This document shows, one piece after another, positions 4,624-14,784 of a stretch of 32,557 bases of DNA. Origin of the DNA: an uncultured euryarchaeote (GTDB taxonomy: Archaea; Thermoplasmatota; Poseidoniia; Poseidoniales; Poseidoniaceae); assembly GCA_937899865.1 (NCBI GenBank), contig CALBRH010000039.1, positions 1 through 32,557 of the forward strand, written 5' to 3'. The notes below the pieces were generated by a model, which had not been told where the DNA came from, made no database searches, and was given only the letters and a program-made list of their open reading frames with translations. The position numbers were made by a program, and so were the translations under genes. Within the stretch, counting starts at the first letter, position 1, and every line of letters begins with the position of its first letter.

Positions 4624-5229
4624 ATGTCCCTATTTACCTCAGTAATATATTTCTCTTTAGGATTTTTTATATCATTTATTTTTCCTCGCTTACCTATAAT
4701 GTTAATCACTAGAACGAAGGGATTCAATACTACATTTCCAGCTCATCCAGAACCAATCCCTCTTTCACCCAAACTTACTCAGCGAGTATTACATATGAGG
4801 ATGATTTACTGGATGGGATTTGTAGCTTCAACAATTCCTCTTTTGTTTGGTCTAGCATCGATTAAGTGGGGTAATGCGCCATTTGGTTTTGGCTTATGGA
4901 TTTCTTCAGGATGGTTTATTCTCTCAAGAATGCAAACCTTTGTTGGTGGTCCAAAACCACCTTGGACATTAGAGATGGCGCAAAAACTTCAGTTGGTTTT
5001 GGATGAGGCAAAATCGGAATCAGCATGCTGTATCAAACCAAGTCCAGAATGGAAAATGTTGTCTATTTCATGTAATAAATGTGGCAAAGTTCTTGAAAAA
5101 ATACCAAGACCCGATTTAGGCAGAAAAAGAAAAGATGGCTTTTTTGCCGGCGGATTTAGACTACTACTTACCGATGGCTATCCTGTAATTGATAACAATT
5201 TAGGAGATATAGAGGATTCCGAGGAATAA
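4624..5229 (+). CDS. Hypothetical membrane protein (about 3 TM) with CC...CxxC putative Zn site
   Basis: Hydrophobic segments near aa 4-28, 62-80 and 85-100; SACC and CNKC motifs. No recognised family. Confidence 0.7.
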   Translation: MSLFTSVIYFSLGFFISFIFPRLPIMLITRTKGFNTTFPAHPEPIPLSPKLTQRVLHMRMIYWMGFVASTIPLLFGLASIKWGNAPFGFGLWISSGWFILSRMQTFVGGPKPPWTLEMAQKLQLVLDEAKSESACCIKPSPEWKMLSISCNKCGKVLEKIPRPDLGRKRKDGFFAGGFRLLLTDGYPVIDNNLGDIEDSEE

Positions 5230-5304
5230 TTCTACACTAAAAACCAATAATTCTGATGATTAACATTAGCAATCTTTGATAATAAAGTGAAGCAACGTTA
5301 CTTT

Positions 5305-6543
5305 ATGGCGGGTAAAGGTCGTAAAAAACCATTTAGTGCTCGTCTATGGCTAACAGTTGTTGCTCTTTGTCAAGTATTCTTGACACCTTTAATCGCTTTT
5401 ACTCTAACGTATCTTTTTGAATTCAGTTTCTTTGGTGAAAGTATTAACATTACATTTCAGAAAGAAATGATACCTTGGATTACTGCAGCATCTCTTATTT
5501 ATGGTATGGTAGCGCTTTTCCTTGCTTTAATTATAGGTGGCTATACACCTTTAGTTGTTATTGAAAATGGTGGTTGGATGAAATTTTTGAAGTTTTCACG
5601 CTCATCACGAAGTGCTACTCAAAGACGTATTGCAAGACAAAATTATGCATCTTCTCCACATGGGCAAATTACAGTTCTTGCACACAAACGGTGGCAACAG
5701 GGTCATTCAATCATTTCCACTCATGGTGGTTTGATTTTACTTGCAGTTCCATTCCAAGTACTATTAGCAACATTGCCATTGGCATTGGTTTTGATGGTTC
5801 CAGATAGTTTGATGAGAGAAAATAGAAGATTAGAGTTAGCATTAATATTGTATATTTTTACTCTGGGGACCGTTATGAAATATTATCCAAAATTAGCCAA
5901 CAAATATATTGGCATTGCTTCATTTACTAGAAAATGGCTAATTTCTATGACCAAGATATCGTGGCTGGCTCCAGTACTTATTTTATGGTTGATGGGTAGA
6001 ATGGCAAGCGTAGTAGTATTGGGGTGGATAGGTTCTGATATTGATTTAAACATAGATCTTGAAAAGTCATTCTTTGAATCAACACTTAACATCGGTTCAA
6101 TACCAGAAACCTCATTCCTTGACCTTATTGCTGCACTAGCAGTTATTCCGTTGGCCACTTTCACTACTTTGGCAGTTTTGGGTGCAGGTTCAGGAGACCC
6201 ACCTGAATGGATGATTGAAAATTTAGAATTGCAAGATTCTAAAGAAAAAGCAAAGGTAAGTGATGTTGTTGACAATCTGTCCAATACAGTCATCGCTCCG
6301 GAGGTTTCAGAAACTCTAACAAAAATCACTTCAAACAACAACTTACCAATTGTTGAAGAACCTATCCAAGAAGTAATTTCCCCTCAACCAGATTCATTTG
6401 AACCGATAATTAGCCCACCGGTTGAACAGGCTGAAATCGAAACACAGGATGACTTTGATTTCGAACATTTTTTTGACGGAAATTTTGGAGAAAACAACAA
6501 GCAACCATCTCATGATGAGCCTTCAATTAAAGGTTTAAAGTGA
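5305..6543 (+). CDS. Hypothetical polytopic membrane protein with acidic, low-complexity C-terminal tail
   Basis: Long ORF (ATG 5305; track GTG 5287), about 6-7 hydrophobic segments, E/D/P-rich tail. Confidence 0.7.
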   Translation: MAGKGRKKPFSARLWLTVVALCQVFLTPLIAFTLTYLFEFSFFGESINITFQKEMIPWITAASLIYGMVALFLALIIGGYTPLVVIENGGWMKFLKFSRSSRSATQRRIARQNYASSPHGQITVLAHKRWQQGHSIISTHGGLILLAVPFQVLLATLPLALVLMVPDSLMRENRRLELALILYIFTLGTVMKYYPKLANKYIGIASFTRKWLISMTKISWLAPVLILWLMGRMASVVVLGWIGSDIDLNIDLEKSFFESTLNIGSIPETSFLDLIAALAVIPLATFTTLAVLGAGSGDPPEWMIENLELQDSKEKAKVSDVVDNLSNTVIAPEVSETLTKITSNNNLPIVEEPIQEVISPQPDSFEPIISPPVEQAEIETQDDFDFEHFFDGNFGENNKQPSHDEPSIKGLK

Positions 6544-6586
6544 ATGTTTTAGTGAATTTTTTGCCAGTCAAACAACAATTACTTTC

Positions 6587-9500
6587 ATGTGTAGAACCTT
6601 CATGGCTCGAATGTTGATGATGATGAGAAGGCTCTCTTCGATTTCCCTTGTTACTTTGTTACTGTTACAAACACTTGCATTAAATTATGTTCCAGAAGCG
6701 GAAGCTGTTTCTGCTAGAGGTGGTGCAAAAGATGACTTTAGTATCTCCAGCATAGAATTAGGAAATACGTCGTTTGAACCCGAAATTTGGATTCAACCCG
6801 ATGGACAAATCCAAGAGTATTTGCTTCAAAATGATGAGGTTGAAGTAATAATAACAGTATCTAAGGATGGGCCAATCACTGGAACTCAAAAGCAAACAGA
6901 TGCTAAACTTGAGATTGTTCATCCAATCGGATTTGTAATTGAAACATTTTATTGGACTACTGACCTAATTGCTGGTGGCCAAGGATTCGAATATAGTCTA
7001 CTGTGGAATCCACAGGAAGCCCATTCTGTTCTAAATACAACAACTAACGAATTAACCGGTGGATTAATCCTTAGAGCATCGGTGAATTTTACTGACGATG
7101 ATAGAAATGACAACGATGTTATGGAAAAGCAAGTTCCTATCGCTGTACATAAGGATTTAATGGATGGAGAAGCCAATGGCAATATCTTGACATTTAGGCC
7201 TGCAAGGTATCCAATTGGCGGTGGTGATGCAAATAATTACGGCTCTTGGTATGAAGATAGTGACGATTCTGCAGTAGGTAATTCTCATTGGAGAATGTCA
7301 TTACCTGGCAACTCCTACCCATCTAGCGCTTTTGACAGACTAGTCCATTCCTTCAAAAACGGCAACAATGATTGTAGTGGAGATGCTCTTGACGCAGGAT
7401 TGTCGTCAATTAACCAGATACCTGTATGCAGAAAATTATTCCAATCTCAAGAATATATCTCTACACAAGTTCACCTACAAGCATGGGGTACAATGGGTGC
7501 AGGAGATGCAGCCTATCTAGAATTTTGGAACGGTAATGGTAACTTTTCAGATCCGTTACAATCAGTTCATTGGGACGTTGCAGCAATTAATCCAAGTCCA
7601 GTTCCAGGGCAATGGAAGAATATTTCATGGGATCCACAAACAGTATGGTCACAAAACCCAGCATTGATGAATCCAGATTTATTGCTTGGTGGTAATGCTT
7701 GGACCTTTGGCCTAGTTTTACGTTCTGATAGTTCAGGAGCAACTCAAGGTATGCACTTTGATGATTTTGTTCAGTTTGGTATTTCCAAAGTTGATGGATT
7801 TACTTTAACCGCAAATTGTGATAATCCAGTAGGTGGCTTTGAAACAGTTCCTAACGACCTTGTTTCCTGGAAGTGTTTGGTAACTAATAATGGTTACAAA
7901 AATGTTCAATTCCGTGCTGAAACAAATATTACCAATGCTTCTTGGATGGATCCAATAGTACCTCAATTACGTCTTGATACAACAAATCCAAATGATAATG
8001 ATTTTAATGTTGTTATTCCGCCAATTGGTCCTTTTGAAACAACAGAGGTTTGGGCAAATTTATCAATACCTCCTGGTGCAGATGTCCAAATTCAAGATTG
8101 GGAAATTTGGTTCACTGATGCTAGTTCAGCTAATACGGGAGAAAAAGCGCGTGTAGCGACAAAAGTTTCTATTAATTCACAATACAGCGTTAGACTAACA
8201 TCAACAACTTCACAGATTGCTCTCACTATGGATCCAGGGGAATCTCAATTATTGCCTTTCACAATTTTCAATACTGGTAATTTAGATTCTACTTTCCAAC
8301 TTAGTTCTACTTTTAGTGAGGACTTATGGTCTGGAACGGTACAAGATGAATTAGGTAATGCGATTACTTCATTGTTTATGCTCAAAGGGACATCAGCAAA
8401 CTTGAACCTACTTATTTCTGCAGAGCAGCAAGCCTCTCCAGGTCAAGTCAATATCAATATTAGAGCATCACGTACTAGTGGTGATGTAGTTGGGGACACA
8501 TTGTTGACACGAATTATCGATGTGCCAATTTATCGAGATTTTGATTTGGAGACAAGTTATACTCTATTTAGTGATGATAATGGCAGATTGTTTGTTGAAG
8601 GTTTTGCTAATGAGGAATCCAAATCAATACTAATGTCGTTATACAATAATGGAAACGATGAGGAATCTTACAATATTTCAGTAACCAATAATTTCCCAAT
8701 TAAATATCGTGAATCTGGTTCTTATGTCGATACATTACAATCTCCATTACTTGATGAGTGGGGAGGCTCATGGACTTTCTTCCTAAATCTACCAATGCCA
8801 ATTGGATTACCTGAAGGATTCTATGAGGTTATAGTTACTGCAACCAATGTTGATGATCCGTCACTTACAGTTAGTGAGGTAATCCCAGTCGAGATAAGAC
8901 AAACTGCTAGTGTTCATGTTGAAACAGATATTTCAGACCAGTCGTATATTCCAGGGGACATTGCTCAATCAATGACTTTTGAAGTAACCAATAATGGCAA
9001 TATTCCAGACACATTCAACATGAGTCTAAACCTGCCACAAGGAATGAATGCTCAGTTTACCAATTTGGTAAATGGTCAATTGACTCCAGTCATAGACAGC
9101 GGTGCGAGTTACAATGTGACGGTTGAGTTTTCTTTTGATAGCGGCGTTAGTGGTAATTTGCAAATGGTAATTATTGGAAAGAGTGAGTTTGACAACACAG
9201 TTGTTGCTAGTGGTGGCTCGACATACTCTGTAGGAAGCTCCAATCAGTGGCTTAAGATACTGCCATCTCAACAAGTAATTATCGATGATTTTGAAAATGA
9301 AGTAGTTCTTGAAGTTACAGTTAGAAATCAATACTCTAGTGCCCAATCGGTATCAATGGATATTGATTATGGCAATTCCAGTAGTTGGTATCAGTCTAGA
9401 ATCGATAGTAGCGACCGTCAATTTGTTCTAGGTACAGGTGATGATTCAGTTAGAGTGGTAACAATTCGATTTGAGGTTACTGAGGACACTTTGAAGAATT

Positions 9501-10147
9501 TAGATAGTCCAACATTTGATTCTGAAATTATTCTTTGGGCTCGCTCAGATACTGTTAGTGATGCTGCACAATCGAATATTCAAATTCAGTTGAGAAAGAT
9601 AATTATCGAGACTAATGATGATACAAGTTCAGGATTTGACTTTGCCGGAGCAGCTACTTGGCTTGCGTTCATTGTTGTTATTGTTGGTGGAATTGTAGTA
9701 ACAATCAGAATCCTGAGAAGTGTTGAAGAAGAGGAAGATGAATATGCAAATTGGGGTCAAGAAGGCTATCAAGATAGCTTAACCTCAACATATCAGTCGG
9801 TTATCTCAGCACCAACTGTACCTTCTGGACCACCAGCAACTGTCCCAACATCTATGCCGCCTCAAGCCCAAGAGCCTCCAACATCTATGCCTCCACAAGC
9901 TCCAGTGAAACCAGTTCCTGAAATAGCACCGGAACAGGAGTCGACTGGATCAAACCAAACAATAGTCCAAAATATCACATATAATATCCATGATAGTGCG
10001 ATATCTGGAGATGTTCTTGCTAGTGCTGGAAAAGTATCAAACCCTGCTGGGCCACCTTTGCCGGCAACAGGCTTACCTGAAGGATGGACAATGGAACAAT
10101 GGAATGCATACGGTGAAATGTGGTTGTCACAAAATCAGCAAAACTGA
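6587..10147 (+). CDS. Large cell-surface protein: signal peptide, beta-sandwich domains with CARDB/NEW3-like Ig repeats, TM anchor, Pro-rich cytoplasmic tail
   Basis: Hydrophobic N-terminus (start may be 6602, 6611 or 6617). Repeated (F/L)x(V/I)xNxGNxxDTF-like motifs: NNGYKNVQF, NTGNLDSTF, NNGNDEESY, NNGNIPDTF. Many N-x-S/T sequons. TM WLAFIVVIVGGIVVTI. Confidence 0.75.
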   Translation: MCRTFMARMLMMMRRLSSISLVTLLLLQTLALNYVPEAEAVSARGGAKDDFSISSIELGNTSFEPEIWIQPDGQIQEYLLQNDEVEVIITVSKDGPITGTQKQTDAKLEIVHPIGFVIETFYWTTDLIAGGQGFEYSLLWNPQEAHSVLNTTTNELTGGLILRASVNFTDDDRNDNDVMEKQVPIAVHKDLMDGEANGNILTFRPARYPIGGGDANNYGSWYEDSDDSAVGNSHWRMSLPGNSYPSSAFDRLVHSFKNGNNDCSGDALDAGLSSINQIPVCRKLFQSQEYISTQVHLQAWGTMGAGDAAYLEFWNGNGNFSDPLQSVHWDVAAINPSPVPGQWKNISWDPQTVWSQNPALMNPDLLLGGNAWTFGLVLRSDSSGATQGMHFDDFVQFGISKVDGFTLTANCDNPVGGFETVPNDLVSWKCLVTNNGYKNVQFRAETNITNASWMDPIVPQLRLDTTNPNDNDFNVVIPPIGPFETTEVWANLSIPPGADVQIQDWEIWFTDASSANTGEKARVATKVSINSQYSVRLTSTTSQIALTMDPGESQLLPFTIFNTGNLDSTFQLSSTFSEDLWSGTVQDELGNAITSLFMLKGTSANLNLLISAEQQASPGQVNINIRASRTSGDVVGDTLLTRIIDVPIYRDFDLETSYTLFSDDNGRLFVEGFANEESKSILMSLYNNGNDEESYNISVTNNFPIKYRESGSYVDTLQSPLLDEWGGSWTFFLNLPMPIGLPEGFYEVIVTATNVDDPSLTVSEVIPVEIRQTASVHVETDISDQSYIPGDIAQSMTFEVTNNGNIPDTFNMSLNLPQGMNAQFTNLVNGQLTPVIDSGASYNVTVEFSFDSGVSGNLQMVIIGKSEFDNTVVASGGSTYSVGSSNQWLKILPSQQVIIDDFENEVVLEVTVRNQYSSAQSVSMDIDYGNSSSWYQSRIDSSDRQFVLGTGDDSVRVVTIRFEVTEDTLKNLDSPTFDSEIILWARSDTVSDAAQSNIQIQLRKIIIETNDDTSSGFDFAGAATWLAFIVVIVGGIVVTIRILRSVEEEEDEYANWGQEGYQDSLTSTYQSVISAPTVPSGPPATVPTSMPPQAQEPPTSMPPQAPVKPVPEIAPEQESTGSNQTIVQNITYNIHDSAISGDVLASAGKVSNPAGPPLPATGLPEGWTMEQWNAYGEMWLSQNQQN
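9845..9900 (+). repeat. Intragenic tandem duplication, period 33 nt (PTSMPPQA x2)
   Basis: CCAACATCTATGCC occurs exactly at 9845 and 9878. Confidence 0.8.
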
Positions 10148-10217: not shown

Positions 10218-11840
10218 ATGTACGGTAATGGACAAGCACCAATTTTCATTTTGAAAGATGGCACTCAAAGAACAAGAGGTAGAACCGCTCAATCAAACAA
10301 CATAGCAGCGGCGAAAGCCGTAGCAGATGCAGTTAGATCAACTCTTGGTCCAAAAGGAATGGACAAGATGCTAGTTGATTCAATGGGTGATGTTGTAATT
10401 ACCAATGATGGTGCAACAATTCTCAAAGAAATGGATATTGAACATCCAGCAGCCAAGATGATTATCGAGGTAGCAAAAACCCAAGAGCAACATTGTTTTG
10501 ATGGTACTACTACTGCAGTAGTTCTATCAGGTGAATTACTCAAGCGTAGTGAAGATTTGATTGAACAAAATGTTCATCCAACCGTTATCTGTGAAGGATT
10601 TAGATTAGCGGCTGAGAAAGCTGTTGAGTTGTTGGAAAGCCATGGTATTGCGACAAAGAATGATGATGCAGTGTTGATGGAAGTGGCAAAGACCGCTTTG
10701 ACCGGTAAATCTGCTGGTGCGGTTAAGTCTTTCATGGCTGATATTTGTGTTAGGTCAGTTAATGCTGTTGGAATAATTGAAGGAGACCAAAGAATTGTTG
10801 ATCTATCTGATATTAAGGTAGAAAAGCGTCAAGGAGGCTCAATCAAAGATTCCAACCTAATTGATGGAATTATTTTAGACAAAGAGAGAGTTCATGCTGG
10901 TATGCCAAGATCAGTTAAAGGCGCTAAGATTGCATTGGTTAATTCAGCAATCGAAGTCAAGAAAACTGAAGTTGACGCTAAGATACAAATTACTGACCCA
11001 AACCAATTATCAAAATTCCTTGAAGAGGAAGAAAACTACATCAAAGGCTTAGTTGAGAAGATTCAAAACTCCGGAGCTAATGTACTAATATGTCAAAAAG
11101 GGATTGATGAACTAGCTCAACATTACATGGCTAAAGCAGGAATTTTTGCTATCAGAAGAGCCAAGAAATCTGATATGGAAGCATTGTCAAAAGCAACTAG
11201 TGGTAAGATTGTCACCAATCTCGATGACTTGACAAGTGATGATTTAGGCAATGCAGAGAAAGTCGAAGAGAAGAAAATTGGGGAGTCAGAAATGACTTTT
11301 ATCACAGGATGCCCTGAGGCAAAATCAGTTTCAGTGCTTCTTCGTGGCGGAACTGAGCATGTAGTTGATGAGATTAGGCGAGCATTCGACGATGCCGTAG
11401 GTGTTGTTTCAGTTGCTTGGGAAGATGGCGCAGTTTTGACCGGTGGAGGAAGTGTTTTGGCTGCTTTGTCAAGAGATCTTCGAACCTTTGCTGAAACTGT
11501 TGGAGGAAGAGAGCAAATGGCAATCGAGGCATTTGCTTCTGCGTTAGAAATTATTCCACGAACTTTAGCTGAAAATGCTGGGCTTGATCCTGTGACTACA
11601 CTAATTGAACTTAGAAAAGCTCATGCTGATGGTCAATCAAATGCTGGAATCAATGTCTATGAAGGCGGAGTCGTCGACATGAGAGGAGCAAATGTACTCG
11701 AACCAATTAGAGTGGTTGAACAAGCAATACAATCTGCTACCGAAACCGCAGTTATGATTCTAAGAATAGATGACGTAATTTCGTCCAAGGGAGTCTCAAT
11801 GGGAGACGAGATGGGTGATATGGGCGATTTCCACATGTGA
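10218..11840 (+). CDS. ths: Thermosome subunit (group II chaperonin)
   Basis: Motifs [41 protein letters not shown], and an MGD-repeat tail. Alpha versus beta cannot be resolved. Confidence 0.96.
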
Positions 11841-11870: not shown

Positions 11871-11917
11871 GTCTCTCCCTACGGGAGAGCAAGCAAGATT
11901 CAAAGACTACGGGAGAC
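11871..11917 (+). terminator. Hairpin after ths with a duplicated 3' arm (terminator or alternative-pairing element)
   Basis: CTCTCCC-TAC-GGGAGAG at 11873-11889; CTACGGGAGA repeated at 11879 and 11907. No poly-T tail follows. Confidence 0.35.
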
Positions 11918-11946: not shown

Positions 11947-13917
11947 ATGACGGTTGTCGCGAAGGTTTGGATTGAAGATGATTGTATCACCTGTGATGCA
12001 TGTCAAGACATCGCTCCTGAAGTATTCGAAGTTACAGATGAAACTTCGAAAATTCTAGCAGCGGTTAGAACTGATGGTACCTTTGACAGAAATACAGGTA
12101 AAGCGCCTTTAGCAGGAGATTTTGGTACTCAATACGGAGAATTAATTCTTGAAGCTTCAGAAGCCTGCCCGGTTGAAATCATCAAATACGAATTGGTTAC
12201 AGATGGTGCAGAAGTTGTCGAAGTAGAAGTTTCTGCAGAAGTAGCAGTAGAAGCCGCAGCTCCAGCGGCTGAAGCAGTCGCAGTTTCAGGCGCAGCCAGT
12301 GGAGAATTGATGGCCTTAATGGAGGGTGACAGATCACTTGCAATTCTATTTGGTTCTCAAACCGGAAACGCAGCTGGTTTAGCAGAAAAGACTGCAAAAC
12401 TTGCAACAAATTACGGATTAGTTCCTACCGTGTATGATATGGATGGACTTGATGTATCTACATTGGCTAATCACAAGAGAACGTTAATCATAACCTCAAC
12501 ATGGGGCGAGGGTGAAATGCCAGATAATGCTGAATCCCTTTGGCAGACCGTTAATTCTCAAGGACCATCTCTTTCAGGTGTTAATTTCAGTGTTTGTGCT
12601 ATCGGTGATACAGCTTACGATGAATTCTGTAAAGCAGGTACTGATTGGGATGATAAGTACCAAGCATTGGGTGCTAACAAGGTTCACGAAATACAGTTGT
12701 GCGACGTCGATTACGAACCTCCTTGGGCTTCATGGGTTGCAGAAGCATTGCCAAAAATCGCTTGTGTAGATTCATCAGGAACACTTCAAATTGAACTTTT
12801 AGATCAAATGATTGCTTATGGTAGCAGTGGTGATGAGGAAGAGGTATCTGGTGATTTCGCACCTAGAGTAGTAGACAAGAGCGAATTAACGGTCACACTA
12901 GAAATTTTCCGATATTGTCCAACAGCTGCAGAATCAGGATGGGATACAGTAGTTTGCTCAATACCCGCAAATGCCTCTATTCAAGATATGCTGATGGCAG
13001 TCAAGAATAGCGTAGATGGCAGTTTGACTTTTAGAGTTGGAAACGGATCAGGTTCGCCAACATCAGGTGTAAGAGTCAATGGAAGACTAGCACTGGCAGA
13101 TATAACCAGTATTTCTGATGTAATTGGAGCAGATGGTAGAATAAAGATAGAACCTATTCCTGGATATCCGGTCATTAGAGATTTAATGGTTGATTATTCC
13201 AAGTTTGAAGAAAACCGTATGAAAGCAAAACCATGGATGTCATCCAGTCCAAGAGAAGGAGAGTATCTAATCAATGGAGTGGCAGTAGGAGTTATGGAAT
13301 CAAGTGAAGCGGTTAAACTGCATTCAATTAGTGATGTTCGATCATATCATCTTGTTCATTCGATGTCTGATACTGTTGCTTATGATTCCAAGTATGAAGG
13401 TCCAGGCATCCATCTACAGAGATGGAATAGAATTATGGATCCAAGGTCTAGTGAGTCGTACAAGAATTCATTGATTGCATCGCTTAACAATTCAAATGGA
13501 ATTTGGGGGGAAGCAGACTTATCCTCAATTGCAAGATATGGGCAGGAAGGTAAGACTGCGTCAGATGGCCTCAATGATATTAGAGCCTATATTCTAAATC
13601 AAACGAATTATCGTGGCCCACATGGCAGATTGGTCAAATGGTATGGCCGTAGTGTTAAATGGACTGGTAAATTGAATGAGACAACTCTATACAGGCAAGT
13701 TTTGGGTCCTGTAGGTTTAATCAGCAATATTTTTGATGGAGTATCAGCGAGAATGGTGCTAGGATTCACCAGAACTGGAGGTCCTCCAATTCGAAGTCTT
13801 CAAGCATTGGTTCTACCACCTGCAGGAATTGGTAAAATACCAAACATGTTCAATTCTAAGGTCAAGAACCATCATCAAGTTGTAGGCTTATTCAATGAAA
13901 TTGATCAGAGGTTCTAA
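11947..13917 (+). CDS. Fusion: [4Fe-4S] ferredoxin + flavodoxin + SdhB/FrdB-fold domain lacking all Fe-S cysteines
   Basis: CITCDAC...CP (C13, C16, C19, C74). Flavodoxin motifs FGSQTGNA, TSTWGEGEMPDNA, IGDTAYDEFC. SdhB-like motifs LEIFRY, SLTFR, VNGRLALA, IEPIPGYPVIRDLMVD, YEGP, DPR with the ligand positions substituted. Confidence 0.85.
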   Translation: MTVVAKVWIEDDCITCDACQDIAPEVFEVTDETSKILAAVRTDGTFDRNTGKAPLAGDFGTQYGELILEASEACPVEIIKYELVTDGAEVVEVEVSAEVAVEAAAPAAEAVAVSGAASGELMALMEGDRSLAILFGSQTGNAAGLAEKTAKLATNYGLVPTVYDMDGLDVSTLANHKRTLIITSTWGEGEMPDNAESLWQTVNSQGPSLSGVNFSVCAIGDTAYDEFCKAGTDWDDKYQALGANKVHEIQLCDVDYEPPWASWVAEALPKIACVDSSGTLQIELLDQMIAYGSSGDEEEVSGDFAPRVVDKSELTVTLEIFRYCPTAAESGWDTVVCSIPANASIQDMLMAVKNSVDGSLTFRVGNGSGSPTSGVRVNGRLALADITSISDVIGADGRIKIEPIPGYPVIRDLMVDYSKFEENRMKAKPWMSSSPREGEYLINGVAVGVMESSEAVKLHSISDVRSYHLVHSMSDTVAYDSKYEGPGIHLQRWNRIMDPRSSESYKNSLIASLNNSNGIWGEADLSSIARYGQEGKTASDGLNDIRAYILNQTNYRGPHGRLVKWYGRSVKWTGKLNETTLYRQVLGPVGLISNIFDGVSARMVLGFTRTGGPPIRSLQALVLPPAGIGKIPNMFNSKVKNHHQVVGLFNEIDQRF

Positions 13918-13926
13918 GTGATTAAG

Positions 13927-14784
13927 ATGCCTAAGATAGCATATTATCCGGGAAATGTTGCAAGAGCTGCATCAATGGAAGTTGAAGATTGCATTCAACC
14001 ACTTTGTAAAACACTTGGAATTGAGTTAATTGAATTGCCAGAGGCAACCAGTGATGGTGGTAACATTATCAAGCAAGCATCAAGCAAACTACAGCATGCA
14101 TTGGTTGCAAGGAATCTTGCTCTAGCCGAGGAAAAAGGACTGGACATTATGACTACTTGCGCAACTAGTCATGGAATAATGAAGGAAACTATGGATGATC
14201 TAAACAATGATCCTGTTTATGCTGCACAACTGAATAACTTGATTGCTCGCTCAACCGGTGTTGAATATCGTGGTGAAGCAGATTCATGGCACTTACTTCA
14301 CTATCTTGTTGAAGAGATTGGTTTGGATAAAGTAACCGATGCAGTAATTAATCCAATTCAACTTAACATTGCACCATATTATGGGCCAAATATGCAAAGA
14401 GAAGGATTCTGTGCTGGTGATGACCCCTTTATGCCAAATTATCTAGAGCAACTAATTAGCGCTATAGGTGGCACTCCAGTTAACTACGACTTAAAATGCC
14501 AAAGTGTAGGAGCGCCATCATTACTTACCTTGGAGAAGCCAGTAATGTCTTTGATTTCATCAGTAATTTCAGATGCAAAATCAAACGGAGCAGAACTAAT
14601 TGTTAGCGCATGTACGGTTTCTCATGCAAACTTAGATTCCTATCAAACCAAAGCAGGAAGAAAGACAGGTAAGAATACTAGTATCCCAGTTGTTCATTTG
14701 GCAGAATTAGTTGCTTTTGCATTTGGGCACTTCCCAGATAGGCTTGCTCAATTGAGAACTAGAGCGATCTTAATTGGTGGCTGA
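13927..14784 (+). CDS. HdrB/SdhE-type (CCG-domain) protein with degenerate cluster motifs
   Basis: KIAYYPG, LGIELIELP, ARNLALAE, HLLHYLVEEIG, PYYG, AKSNGA, NLD and IPVVHLAELV match the HdrB/SdhE layout, but both CCG motifs are absent. ATG 13927 (track GTG 13918). Confidence 0.85.
   Translation: MPKIAYYPGNVARAASMEVEDCIQPLCKTLGIELIELPEATSDGGNIIKQASSKLQHALVARNLALAEEKGLDIMTTCATSHGIMKETMDDLNNDPVYAAQLNNLIARSTGVEYRGEADSWHLLHYLVEEIGLDKVTDAVINPIQLNIAPYYGPNMQREGFCAGDDPFMPNYLEQLISAIGGTPVNYDLKCQSVGAPSLLTLEKPVMSLISSVISDAKSNGAELIVSACTVSHANLDSYQTKAGRKTGKNTSIPVVHLAELVAFAFGHFPDRLAQLRTRAILIGG

What the first reader, a model, noticed from the sequence alone, without database searches (positions are those of the whole stretch)
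11947..14784. Candidate new redox system: an Fe-S-free SdhB/SdhE mimic pair carrying tethered ferredoxin and flavodoxin
Seen: two abutting co-oriented intact ORFs (TAA 13917, next start 13918 or 13927). Gene 1 is ferredoxin-flavodoxin-SdhB fold; gene 2 is an SdhE/HdrB fold. Both partner folds keep their scaffold residues but have lost nearly every cluster cysteine. Established: SdhB plus a CCG-domain SdhE are partner subunits of type E succinate dehydrogenases (Sulfolobales) and resemble HdrC/HdrB. No SdhA or HdrA flavoprotein gene is in this window. Inference: coordinated ligand loss in two interacting subunits with preserved folds suggests a non-catalytic scaffold. It could dock two low-potential electron carriers onto the membrane, onto a flavoprotein, or onto an intact SdhB/E paralog as an asymmetric heterodimer. 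It might also be an iron-sparing remodelling for iron-poor seawater. I do not recall this architecture being described, but cannot check.
Basis: partly seen in the sequence, partly recalled or inferred. Interest (0 to 1): 0.88.

Follow-up and report, generated by a model that had tools for sequence, protein, structure and literature searches.

The report
Cluster-less SdhB/SdhE pair with tethered carriers
All Marine Group II archaea sampled keep a strongly conserved two-gene module, made from succinate-dehydrogenase parts, that has lost its iron-sulfur wire and instead carries fused, swappable ferredoxin or flavodoxin domains; its function is untested.

Summary
Gene 1 (11947-13917) is ferredoxin + flavodoxin + an SdhB-like domain in which all 11 canonical Fe-S ligand positions are non-cysteine. 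Gene 2 (13927-14784) is an HdrB/SdhE-like protein that keeps 2 of its 10 canonical cysteines.

The pair is not decaying. It occurs in 150 of 151 Poseidoniales genomes and in 0 of 237 other Thermoplasmatota. Synonymous sites are saturated while dN is 0.01-0.13. The locus sits in fixed synteny, and every high-quality genome sampled also has a separate Cys-intact SDH.

A complex model supports binding (ipSAE 0.89, best control 0.00), though this may reflect likeness to solved HdrBC-type complexes.

- The N-terminal "head" carrier behaves as a cassette: ferredoxin, flavodoxin or none, exchanged among near-identical strains.
- Ligand loss was stepwise.
- Gene 2 is not demonstrably metal-free. Four cysteines stay conserved (C81, C232, C165, plus C30 or C46 depending on family).

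My best reading is an iron-minimised electron-input module descended from type-E SdhB/SdhE. The final acceptor is unknown. I found no paper describing it. This scan has met the same module before in other Poseidoniales genomes.

The parts
11947..12201 (+). Gene 1, aa 1-85: single-cluster [4Fe-4S] ferredoxin 'head' (C13, C16, C19 ... C74-P)
   Evidence: Pfam Fer4_13, 39.2 bits against a cut-off of 24.5. The CxxCxxC...CP motif is conserved in ferredoxin-headed orthologs. Near-identical strains carry a flavodoxin here instead.
12202..12321 (+). Linker 1, aa 86-125: Ala/Glu/Val-rich, poorly conserved flexible tether
   Evidence: AF2 pLDDT is below 50 over aa 86-116. It has the lowest column conservation of any region, 0.48. 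dN/dS is 0.15-0.42 where defined.
12322..12771 (+). aa 126-275: constant CysJ/CPR-type FMN (flavodoxin) domain
   Evidence: Pfam Flavodoxin_1, 98.7 bits against a cut-off of 25. The GSQTGNA and TSTWGEGE motifs are invariant. Foldseek matches CPR and NOS FMN domains. It is the only Flavodoxin_1 domain found in the genome.
12772..12879 (+). Linker 2, aa 276-311: conserved connector with the motifs SGTLQ..LL and GDF.P
   Evidence: Invariant residues. dN/dS is about 0.05 against two orthologs. aa 294-309 are disordered in the monomer model.
12880..13614 (+). aa 312-556: SdhB-like N- and C-domains with all 11 canonical Fe-S ligand positions replaced
   Evidence: Pfam Fer2_3, 46.7 bits. Foldseek matches SdhB/FrdB chains with probability 1.0 and TMt about 0.5. 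Ligand mapping. No Cys is conserved across both families of the order.
13615..13917 (+). aa 557-656 plus stop: C-terminal extension shared with type-E/MFR-like SdhB. It is the most conserved part of the protein and the main predicted interface with gene 2.
   Evidence: dN is 0.013-0.018 with saturated dS. Column conservation is 0.86. It aligns with the extension of Cys-intact SdhBs of about 300 aa. Interface residues 558-603 and 636-656. pLDDT is below 50 in the monomer model.
13927..14784 (+). Gene 2: HdrB/SdhE-like double CCG-fold protein (285 aa from ATG 13927; GTG 13918 is the alternative start). C81 is the codon at 14158-14160 and C232 the codon at 14611-14613, numbered from the GTG.
   Evidence: TIGR03288 3e-38 and MFR SdhE 3e-29, both below cut-off. 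Profile against PDB HdrB, 6e-42. C81 and C232 are kept in 121 of 121 and 27 of 27 orthologs. C165 is kept in 113/121 and 27/27. C30 is kept in 113/121 of the close homologs (mostly Poseidoniaceae), while C46 takes its place in 27/27 of the second family.

Best explanation
The two genes encode a heterodimeric, iron-minimised electron-input module specific to Poseidoniales. It descends from the SdhB (iron-sulfur) and SdhE (CCG 'anchor') subunits of a type-E succinate:quinone oxidoreductase.

The SdhB-like domain no longer conducts electrons; it is a cluster-free scaffold clamped onto the SdhE-like subunit. The redox cofactors now sit in the fused N-terminal modules. One is a constant FMN domain held next to the core by a conserved connector. 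The other, on a floppy linker, is an exchangeable head: a [4Fe-4S] ferredoxin here, a second flavodoxin in sister strains, and absent in some lineages.

Proposed working:
1. The head collects low-potential electrons, for example from the genome's 2-oxoacid:ferredoxin oxidoreductase or from free ferredoxins.
2. The head passes them to the FMN.
3. The FMN delivers them to the former CCG site of the SdhE-like subunit. Four cysteines remain conserved there (C81, C232, C165, plus C30 or C46) and may hold a remodelled metal centre.
4. From there the electrons go to an acceptor at the membrane surface, most likely a quinone, as proposed for SdhE.

Shown: the domain content, the ligand loss, the conservation, the distribution, the cassette swapping and the descent. 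Predicted: the heterodimer. Inferred: the direction of electron flow, the donor, membrane association and the acceptor.
For: - Domains and ligand loss.
- Descent: the nearest Cys-intact relatives (E about 1e-14, 26-30% identity) share the C-terminal extension and lie in SdhA-SdhB-SdhE gene orders.
- Core gene of the order: 150/151 genomes and 58/58 high-quality ones; 0/237 elsewhere in the phylum. Synteny thermosome - gene 1 - gene 2 - Hef - rpl3 operon holds even in distant members.
- Purifying selection: dS is saturated; dN is 0.013-0.06 in aa 557-656 and 0.046-0.128 in gene 2.
- Heterodimer: ipSAE 0.89 in all three runs against a best control of 0.00. That mark was reached by 58 of 80 solved complexes and 2 of 110 mismatched pairs. 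The runs agree in at least 81% of contacts and the partner's pLDDT is at least 88. I supplied my own alignments, so these counts hold only roughly. One genome has a natural gene 1-gene 2 fusion.
- Carriers are interchangeable modules: Fd-B, Fd-Fd-B, Fld-B, Fd-Fld-B and Fld-Fld-B architectures all occur. On a tree of the constant part, head type needs at least 11-16 changes among 55 sequences and is not clustered. The swap happens at the same locus with conserved flanks.
- The conserved four-Cys set in gene 2.
- Genome context: one OFOR, NuoD present but NuoF not found, free small ferredoxins present, and no other Flavodoxin_1 domain.
- SdhE is proposed to be a monotopic anchor and quinone site, with its cluster possibly structural (PMC2754724).
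Against: - No cofactor, membrane or activity data exist.
- No tool gave coordinates, so I do not know whether the FMN lies within electron-transfer distance of the four cysteines, or whether those cysteines converge at all.
- Both former cluster loops of gene 2 are predicted to be buried against the SdhB-like domain. That fits a purely structural interface as well as an active site.
- The complex may score high because it resembles solved HdrBC and complex II structures.
- The fusion occurs in a single MAG and could be an assembly or deletion artefact.
- Neither protein has a transmembrane segment, and there is no quinone-site motif that I could test.
Confidence: 0.4

Rival explanations
1. Ferredoxin/flavodoxin-dependent thiol-disulfide oxidoreductase. 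The retained cysteines (C81/C232, possibly with C165/C30) form redox-active dithiol/disulfide pairs reduced by the adjacent FMN. This would continue the disulfide chemistry of the HdrB/TfrB/DsrK ancestors without the clusters.
For: Exactly one canonical Cys per CCG half is invariant in 121/121 and 27/27 orthologs, and the second Cys of each CxxC has become Ser/Ala/Thr. Deep-branching members keep a complete N-terminal noncubane-cluster motif plus C232, which is the arrangement of one-cluster disulfide reductases. HdrB is the best solved match. A flavin next to a cysteine pair is standard disulfide-reductase chemistry (established knowledge).
Against: The immediate ancestors are SdhB/SdhE of quinone-linked enzymes, not Hdr. 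A normal thioredoxin reductase is present, so there is no obvious gap to fill. The ex-cluster loops are predicted to be buried in the interface. The distance between the cysteines is unknown.
Confidence: 0.2
2. Non-catalytic docking scaffold. The cluster-less SdhB/SdhE core only anchors the tethered carriers onto another enzyme or onto the membrane. Candidates are the Nuo-like complex that lacks NuoEFG, the 2-oxoacid:ferredoxin oxidoreductase, NadB or SdhA. The FMN would hand electrons directly to that partner.
For: The SdhB-like domain has no conserved Cys, yet its N-domain motifs (FRY.P, DGSL.FR, PVIRDL.VD) are retained. The C-terminal 100 aa are more conserved than an internal interface alone would seem to need. 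NuoF was not found while NuoD is present. CysJ/CPR-type FMN domains normally serve a separate acceptor protein (established knowledge; fold match).
Against: No candidate partner gene is linked in any of the loci examined. The invariant cysteines of gene 2 are left unexplained.
Confidence: 0.2
3. Accessory or alternative anchor subunits of the genome's canonical succinate dehydrogenase, as the automatic 'sdhC' and 'SdhB-like' labels suggest.
For: JGI names for orthologs include 'succinate dehydrogenase/fumarate reductase cytochrome b subunit' and 'SdhB-like Fe-S protein'. The pair and the canonical SdhB co-occur in every genome sampled.
Against: The canonical enzyme is a complete Sdh1-type set. 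Its membrane anchor matches 7D6V chain C at 6e-32, SdhA and a Cys-intact SdhB score above their NCBIfam cut-offs, and the operon lies on another contig. A second, cluster-free SdhB could not pass electrons on.
Confidence: 0.05
4. A decaying relic: pseudogenised SDH subunits with no function.
For: The defining ligands are lost and the flavoprotein partner is missing from the locus.
Against: The frames are intact in 150/151 genomes. dN is far below the saturated dS. The last 50 aa are 100% identical between species. Synteny is fixed. Carrier modules have been gained and exchanged repeatedly.
Confidence: 0.01

Closest known systems
SdhB + SdhE of type-E ('non-classical') succinate:quinone oxidoreductase (Sulfolobus/Acidianus SdhABEF) and of the SdhABE methylmenaquinol:fumarate reductase of Wolinella/Campylobacter
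   Same: The two-gene order is SdhB then a CCG protein of about 288 aa. The SdhB fold carries the long C-terminal extension. The partner has a double CCG fold. A tight SdhB-SdhE interface is predicted.
   Different: No SdhA is linked. All 11 SdhB ligand positions and 8 of 10 CCG cysteines are replaced. One or two ferredoxin/flavodoxin modules are fused N-terminally. All curated model cut-offs are missed by a wide margin.
HdrB/HdrC of heterodisulfide reductase (PDB 5ODC, 8RVV) and TfrB of thiol:fumarate reductase
   Same: HdrB is the best solved-structure match of gene 2 (6e-42), collinear over about 270 aa including the His and Asp after the second CxxC. TfrB is the fused SdhB + HdrB equivalent.
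   Different: The noncubane-cluster ligands are mostly gone. Poseidoniales are aerobic heterotrophs with no methanogenic context. The partner is SdhB-like, not HdrC.
FMN domains of CysJ, cytochrome P450 reductase and NOS; MioC
   Same: Sequence and fold of aa 126-275, and the FMN-loop motifs.
   Different: No FAD/NADPH reductase domain follows. The domain is fused to a ferredoxin and to an SdhB-like scaffold instead.
Ferredoxin/flavodoxin substitution under iron limitation (petF/isiB of cyanobacteria and marine algae)
   Same: An iron-containing carrier and an iron-free carrier occupy the same functional slot.
   Different: Here the alternatives are alleles of one fused gene, exchanged at a fixed locus among near-identical strains. 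They are not two separately regulated genes. A link to iron availability is untested.
Mycobacterium smegmatis Sdh1 (PDB 7D6V)
   Same: This is the type of the genome's real, Cys-intact SDH.
   Different: It is a separate operon on another contig and is not related to the pair by recent duplication. The canonical SdhB is only 17% identical to the SdhB-like domain.

Membership tests
SdhB/FrdB iron-sulfur subunit of complex II | N-terminal 2Fe-2S ferredoxin-like fold plus C-terminal helical domain | tested here: met
   Pfam Fer2_3, 46.7 bits against a cut-off of 27. Foldseek matches SdhB chains with probability 1.0 and TMt about 0.5.
SdhB/FrdB iron-sulfur subunit of complex II | Eleven or more cysteine ligands for the [2Fe-2S], [4Fe-4S] and [3Fe-4S]/[4Fe-4S] clusters | tested here: not met
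   All 11 positions are non-Cys. No Cys is conserved across both families of the order.
SdhB/FrdB iron-sulfur subunit of complex II | Score above the curated NCBIfam cut-offs | tested here: not met
   The best match is PRK12576 at 70.7 bits against a cut-off of 344. The genome's true SdhB scores 353.8 against 256.
SdhB/FrdB iron-sulfur subunit of complex II | Encoded with, and bound to, an SdhA/FrdA flavoprotein | tested here: not met
   No FAD_binding_2 gene lies on the contig. The only SdhA sits in the Sdh1-type operon, and the other homolog is NadB. Physical binding was not testable.
SdhE/HdrB CCG-domain protein (PF02754 x2) | Two CCG-domain folds, collinear with HdrB/SdhE | tested here: met
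   TIGR03288 3e-38 over aa 6-277. Profile against PDB HdrB, 6e-42. Both scores are below the curated cut-offs.
SdhE/HdrB CCG-domain protein (PF02754 x2) | Two CXnCCGXmCXXC motifs (10 Cys) binding noncubane [4Fe-4S] clusters | tested here: not met
   Only C81 and C232 remain. Pfam CCG scores 19.6 bits, below the 20.6 cut-off.
SdhE/HdrB CCG-domain protein (PF02754 x2) | Forms a complex with an SdhB/HdrC-type partner | tested here: inconclusive
   The genes are adjacent in all loci. ipSAE is 0.89 against a best control of 0.00, but the prediction may rest on likeness to solved complexes. One natural fusion exists.
Flavodoxin / CysJ-type FMN domain | Flavodoxin_1 profile above cut-off with the FMN phosphate loop and stacking loops | tested here: met
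   98.7 bits against a cut-off of 25. GSQTGNA, TSTWGEGE and GD..Y..FC are invariant. FMN binding itself is not testable here.
Single-cluster [4Fe-4S] ferredoxin (Fer4_13) | Profile above cut-off with CxxCxxC...CP | tested here: met
   39.2 bits against a cut-off of 24.5. C13, C16, C19 and C74-P are present.

The most novel reading that the evidence does not exclude
A respiratory-type enzyme rebuilt almost without iron. One FMN, plus a remodelled four-cysteine site, replaces five Fe-S clusters to give a ferredoxin/flavodoxin-driven quinone or disulfide reductase unique to Marine Group II archaea. Its outermost carrier exists as a long-lived ferredoxin/flavodoxin allele polymorphism that tracks iron supply in the ocean.
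Probability: 0.2. Interest if true: 0.85.

Novelty: new variant of a known kind. Interest (0 to 1): 0.72.

Why it matters
Poseidoniales are among the most abundant archaea of the surface ocean and remain uncultured. This is a universal, order-specific core gene pair that public annotation labels only generically or wrongly ('flavodoxin domain-containing protein', 'HdrB family', 'sdhC').

If it is an electron-input or ferredoxin-reoxidising module, it fills a gap in their respiratory scheme: the Nuo-like complex has no NuoEFG and the cell has an OFOR.

It is also a clear natural case of an Fe-S 'wire' protein kept as a scaffold while flavin-based modules take over.

The ferredoxin/flavodoxin head alleles could serve as a genomic marker of iron limitation in archaeal populations.

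Tried and rejected
- Decay or pseudogene: rejected.
- Anchor of the canonical SDH: rejected, because that enzyme has its own Sdh1-type anchor.
- A dedicated second SdhA or TfrA: the only other homolog is NadB.
- A separate ferredoxin gene upstream of flavodoxin-headed alleles: none exists; the head is replaced in place.
- AF2 monomer of gene 1: pLDDT 69.7, pTM 0.37, C-terminal 100 aa below 50. It confirmed the folds but gave no domain arrangement.
- AF2 of the natural Fld-Fld-B-E fusion with an unpaired alignment: pLDDT 80.7, pTM 0.38, extension at 31-58. It adds no support for docking and is not evidence against it.
- No tool returned coordinates, so FMN-to-cysteine and cysteine-to-cysteine distances could not be measured.
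- dN/dS ratios are mostly undefined because dS is saturated even between orthologs about 90% identical. Only dN and upper-bound ratios are given.
- Literature searches found no description of this architecture. The archaeal fusion survey PMC11237513 does not mention it.
- A missing thioredoxin reductase as a rationale for a disulfide reductase: rejected, because TrxR is present.
Full report
**What is there**

The window holds two abutting, co-oriented intact ORFs. Gene 1 runs 11947..13917 (656 aa). Gene 2 runs from GTG 13918 or ATG 13927 to 14784. Most orthologs of gene 2 are 285 aa, so the ATG is the likely start. A GGTGA lies 7 nt before the gene 1 ATG. Upstream is a thermosome gene (10218..11840). 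Downstream, convergent and 1 nt away, is a Hef helicase/ERCC4 nuclease, followed by the rpl3 ribosomal-protein operon.

**Domains**

Gene 1 scores above the Pfam cut-offs for Fer4_13 (aa 10-80), Flavodoxin_1 (133-254) and Fer2_3 (317-421). NCBIfam SdhB/FrdB models align to aa 312-582 but far below their cut-offs: 70.7 bits against 344. Gene 2 matches HdrB (TIGR03288, 3e-38) and the MFR SdhE (3e-29), also below cut-off. Foldseek on an AF2 model returns SdhB/FrdB chains (probability 1.0, TMt about 0.5) and CPR/NOS FMN domains.

**Ligand loss**

Alignment with E. coli SdhB and with the nearest Cys-intact SdhBs maps every canonical ligand position to a non-cysteine residue:
- [2Fe-2S] positions: N366, S370, S373, D385.
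- First [4Fe-4S] motif: V464, Y467, V470, S474.
- Third cluster: E522, I528, G532.

Across 119 close homologs and 29 sequences of the second family, no cysteine of the SdhB-like domain is conserved in both groups.

In gene 2, alignment to solved HdrB shows that 8 of 10 CCG cysteines are replaced. Only C81 and C232 survive, each the first Cys of a CxxC motif. They are present in 121/121 and 27/27 orthologs.

**It is not decay**

- The SdhB-like domain is found in 150 of 151 genomes of the order (58/58 high-quality ones, 22/22 genera), with no internal stops.
- It is found in 0 of 237 genomes elsewhere in the phylum.
- Against three orthologs, synonymous sites are saturated while dN stays low: 0.06-0.10 in the flavodoxin, 0.09-0.24 in the SdhB-like domains, 0.013-0.06 in the last 100 aa and 0.046-0.128 in gene 2.
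- The final 50 aa are identical between species.
- The synteny thermosome - gene 1 - gene 2 - Hef - rpl3 holds even in the most divergent members.

**Descent**

An exhaustive search with aa 290-656 finds only about a dozen full-length 50%-identity clusters with E below 1e-50, and all of them are Cys-poor. There is then a gap to E of about 1e-14, where Cys-intact SdhBs of 300-370 aa appear. These share the C-terminal extension. They sit in SdhA-SdhB-SdhE gene orders with a 288-aa CCG protein. The pair therefore derives from a type-E/MFR-like SdhB-SdhE.

**The genome's real SDH lies elsewhere**

On contig 57 there is a membrane protein matching the M. smegmatis Sdh1 anchor (7D6V_C, 6e-32). It is followed by SdhA and a Cys-intact SdhB, both above their NCBIfam cut-offs, and then a DoxX-like protein. 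The canonical SdhB is present in 41/41 sampled genomes of the order. The only other SdhA homolog is NadB.

**Do the two proteins bind?**

A complex prediction of aa 290-656 with gene 2, each supplied as an alignment, gave ipSAE 0.89 in all three runs against a best control of 0.00. That mark was reached by 58 of 80 solved complexes and 2 of 110 mismatched pairs. The runs agree in at least 81% of contacts, and the partner's pLDDT is at least 88. Because I used my own alignments, these counts hold only roughly. Because HdrBC and complex II structures are solved, the pass may reflect likeness rather than this copy's behaviour.

The interface pairs former cluster sites with each other. S474/D475, E522-S527 and 558-603/636-656 of gene 1 meet the former CCG loops 13-18, 41-58, 157-162 and 194-212 of gene 2.

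One genome (G019) has the two genes fused into a single 987-aa frame. AF2 on that fusion left the extension at low confidence, so it adds nothing either way.

**Carriers are cassettes**

Five architectures occur:

| Architecture | Length | Where seen |
|---|---|---|
| Fd-Fld-B | about 655 aa | this window |
| Fld-Fld-B | about 720-750 aa | sister strains |
| Fd-Fd-B | 583 aa | deep-branching member |
| Fd-B | 446 aa | deep-branching member |
| Fld-B (headless) | 551 aa | second family |

A 721-aa Fld-Fld form is 95% identical to this protein outside the head. On a tree of the constant part, head type needs at least 11-16 changes among 55 sequences and is no more clustered than shuffled labels. 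I chose those rows myself to include both forms. The head flavodoxins group apart from the internal ones, so a single old origin is not excluded. The swap occurs at the same locus: the thermosome is 90-100% identical, the head about 20%, and the rest 78-100%.

Linker 1 is disordered and poorly conserved. Linker 2 carries invariant motifs and has dN/dS of about 0.05. The FMN domain therefore looks like a fixed part of the core, and the head looks like a mobile accessory.

**Loss was stepwise, and gene 2 may not be metal-free**

Deep-branching members keep all five N-terminal CCG cysteines plus C232. The second family keeps C46, C81, C165 and C232 in 27/27 sequences. The close homologs of this gene keep C81 and C232 in 121/121, and C30 and C165 in 113/121 each. 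Each family thus conserves four cysteines, with the fourth at a different position. This is what a remodelled metal or disulfide site would look like. I could not test the geometry.

**Context**

The genome (91% complete) has the following:
- one 2-oxoacid:ferredoxin oxidoreductase;
- NuoD, but NuoF was not found;
- small free ferredoxins;
- no other Flavodoxin_1 domain;
- a normal thioredoxin reductase.

Hamann et al. (PMC2754724) describe SdhE as a proposed monotopic anchor and quinone site whose cluster may be structural.

**Reading**

The best-supported picture is an iron-minimised electron-input module. A head carrier passes electrons to a fixed FMN, which passes them to the four-Cys site of the SdhE-like subunit and on to an acceptor, probably a quinone at the membrane. 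The cluster-free SdhB-like domain serves as the scaffold.

Thiol-disulfide chemistry, and a pure docking role toward another enzyme, remain live rivals. Decay and a role as anchor of the canonical SDH are rejected.

No publication describing the architecture was found. Earlier agents of this scan reached similar conclusions on other Poseidoniales genomes. I saw those notes only after my own analyses.

Noticed in passing
window 11873-11889: A perfect 7-bp hairpin (CTCTCCC tac GGGAGAG) lies 33 nt after the thermosome stop and about 60 nt before gene 1. A further GGGAGA copy follows downstream. It could be a terminator or a regulatory element.
   Followed up: no
L016:2809-6685 (own genome, contig 57): The genome's canonical SDH is of the mycobacterial Sdh1 type. 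The anchor matches 7D6V_C at 6e-32, and SdhA and SdhB score above the PRK07803 and PRK12386 cut-offs. A DoxX-like membrane protein follows. This is an actinobacterial-type complex II in an archaeon.
   Followed up: partly
L030:1871-4834 (genome G019): A single 987-aa frame fuses Fld-Fld-SdhB-like to the HdrB-like partner, and the last ~25 aa of the extension are missing. It was seen in one MAG only, so an artefact is not excluded.
   Followed up: partly
L032:1890-3545 (-) (genome G055): A headless 551-aa Fld-SdhB-like form occurs in small (1.3 Mb) genomes of the second family. Its partner keeps C46, C81, C165 and C232.
   Followed up: partly
window 4624-10147: Three consecutive ORFs (201, 418 and 1186 aa) have no Pfam match. 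A large ORF (1112 aa, no Pfam hit on record) also precedes the thermosome gene in a distant relative (L017); I did not compare it with this one.
   Followed up: no
own genome, contigs 54 and 25 (L012, L013): Two large Cys-intact CCG-domain proteins (open frames of 937 and 696 aa) resemble TfrB/LdhH/GlpC. Intact CCG clusters are therefore still made in this organism.
   Followed up: partly
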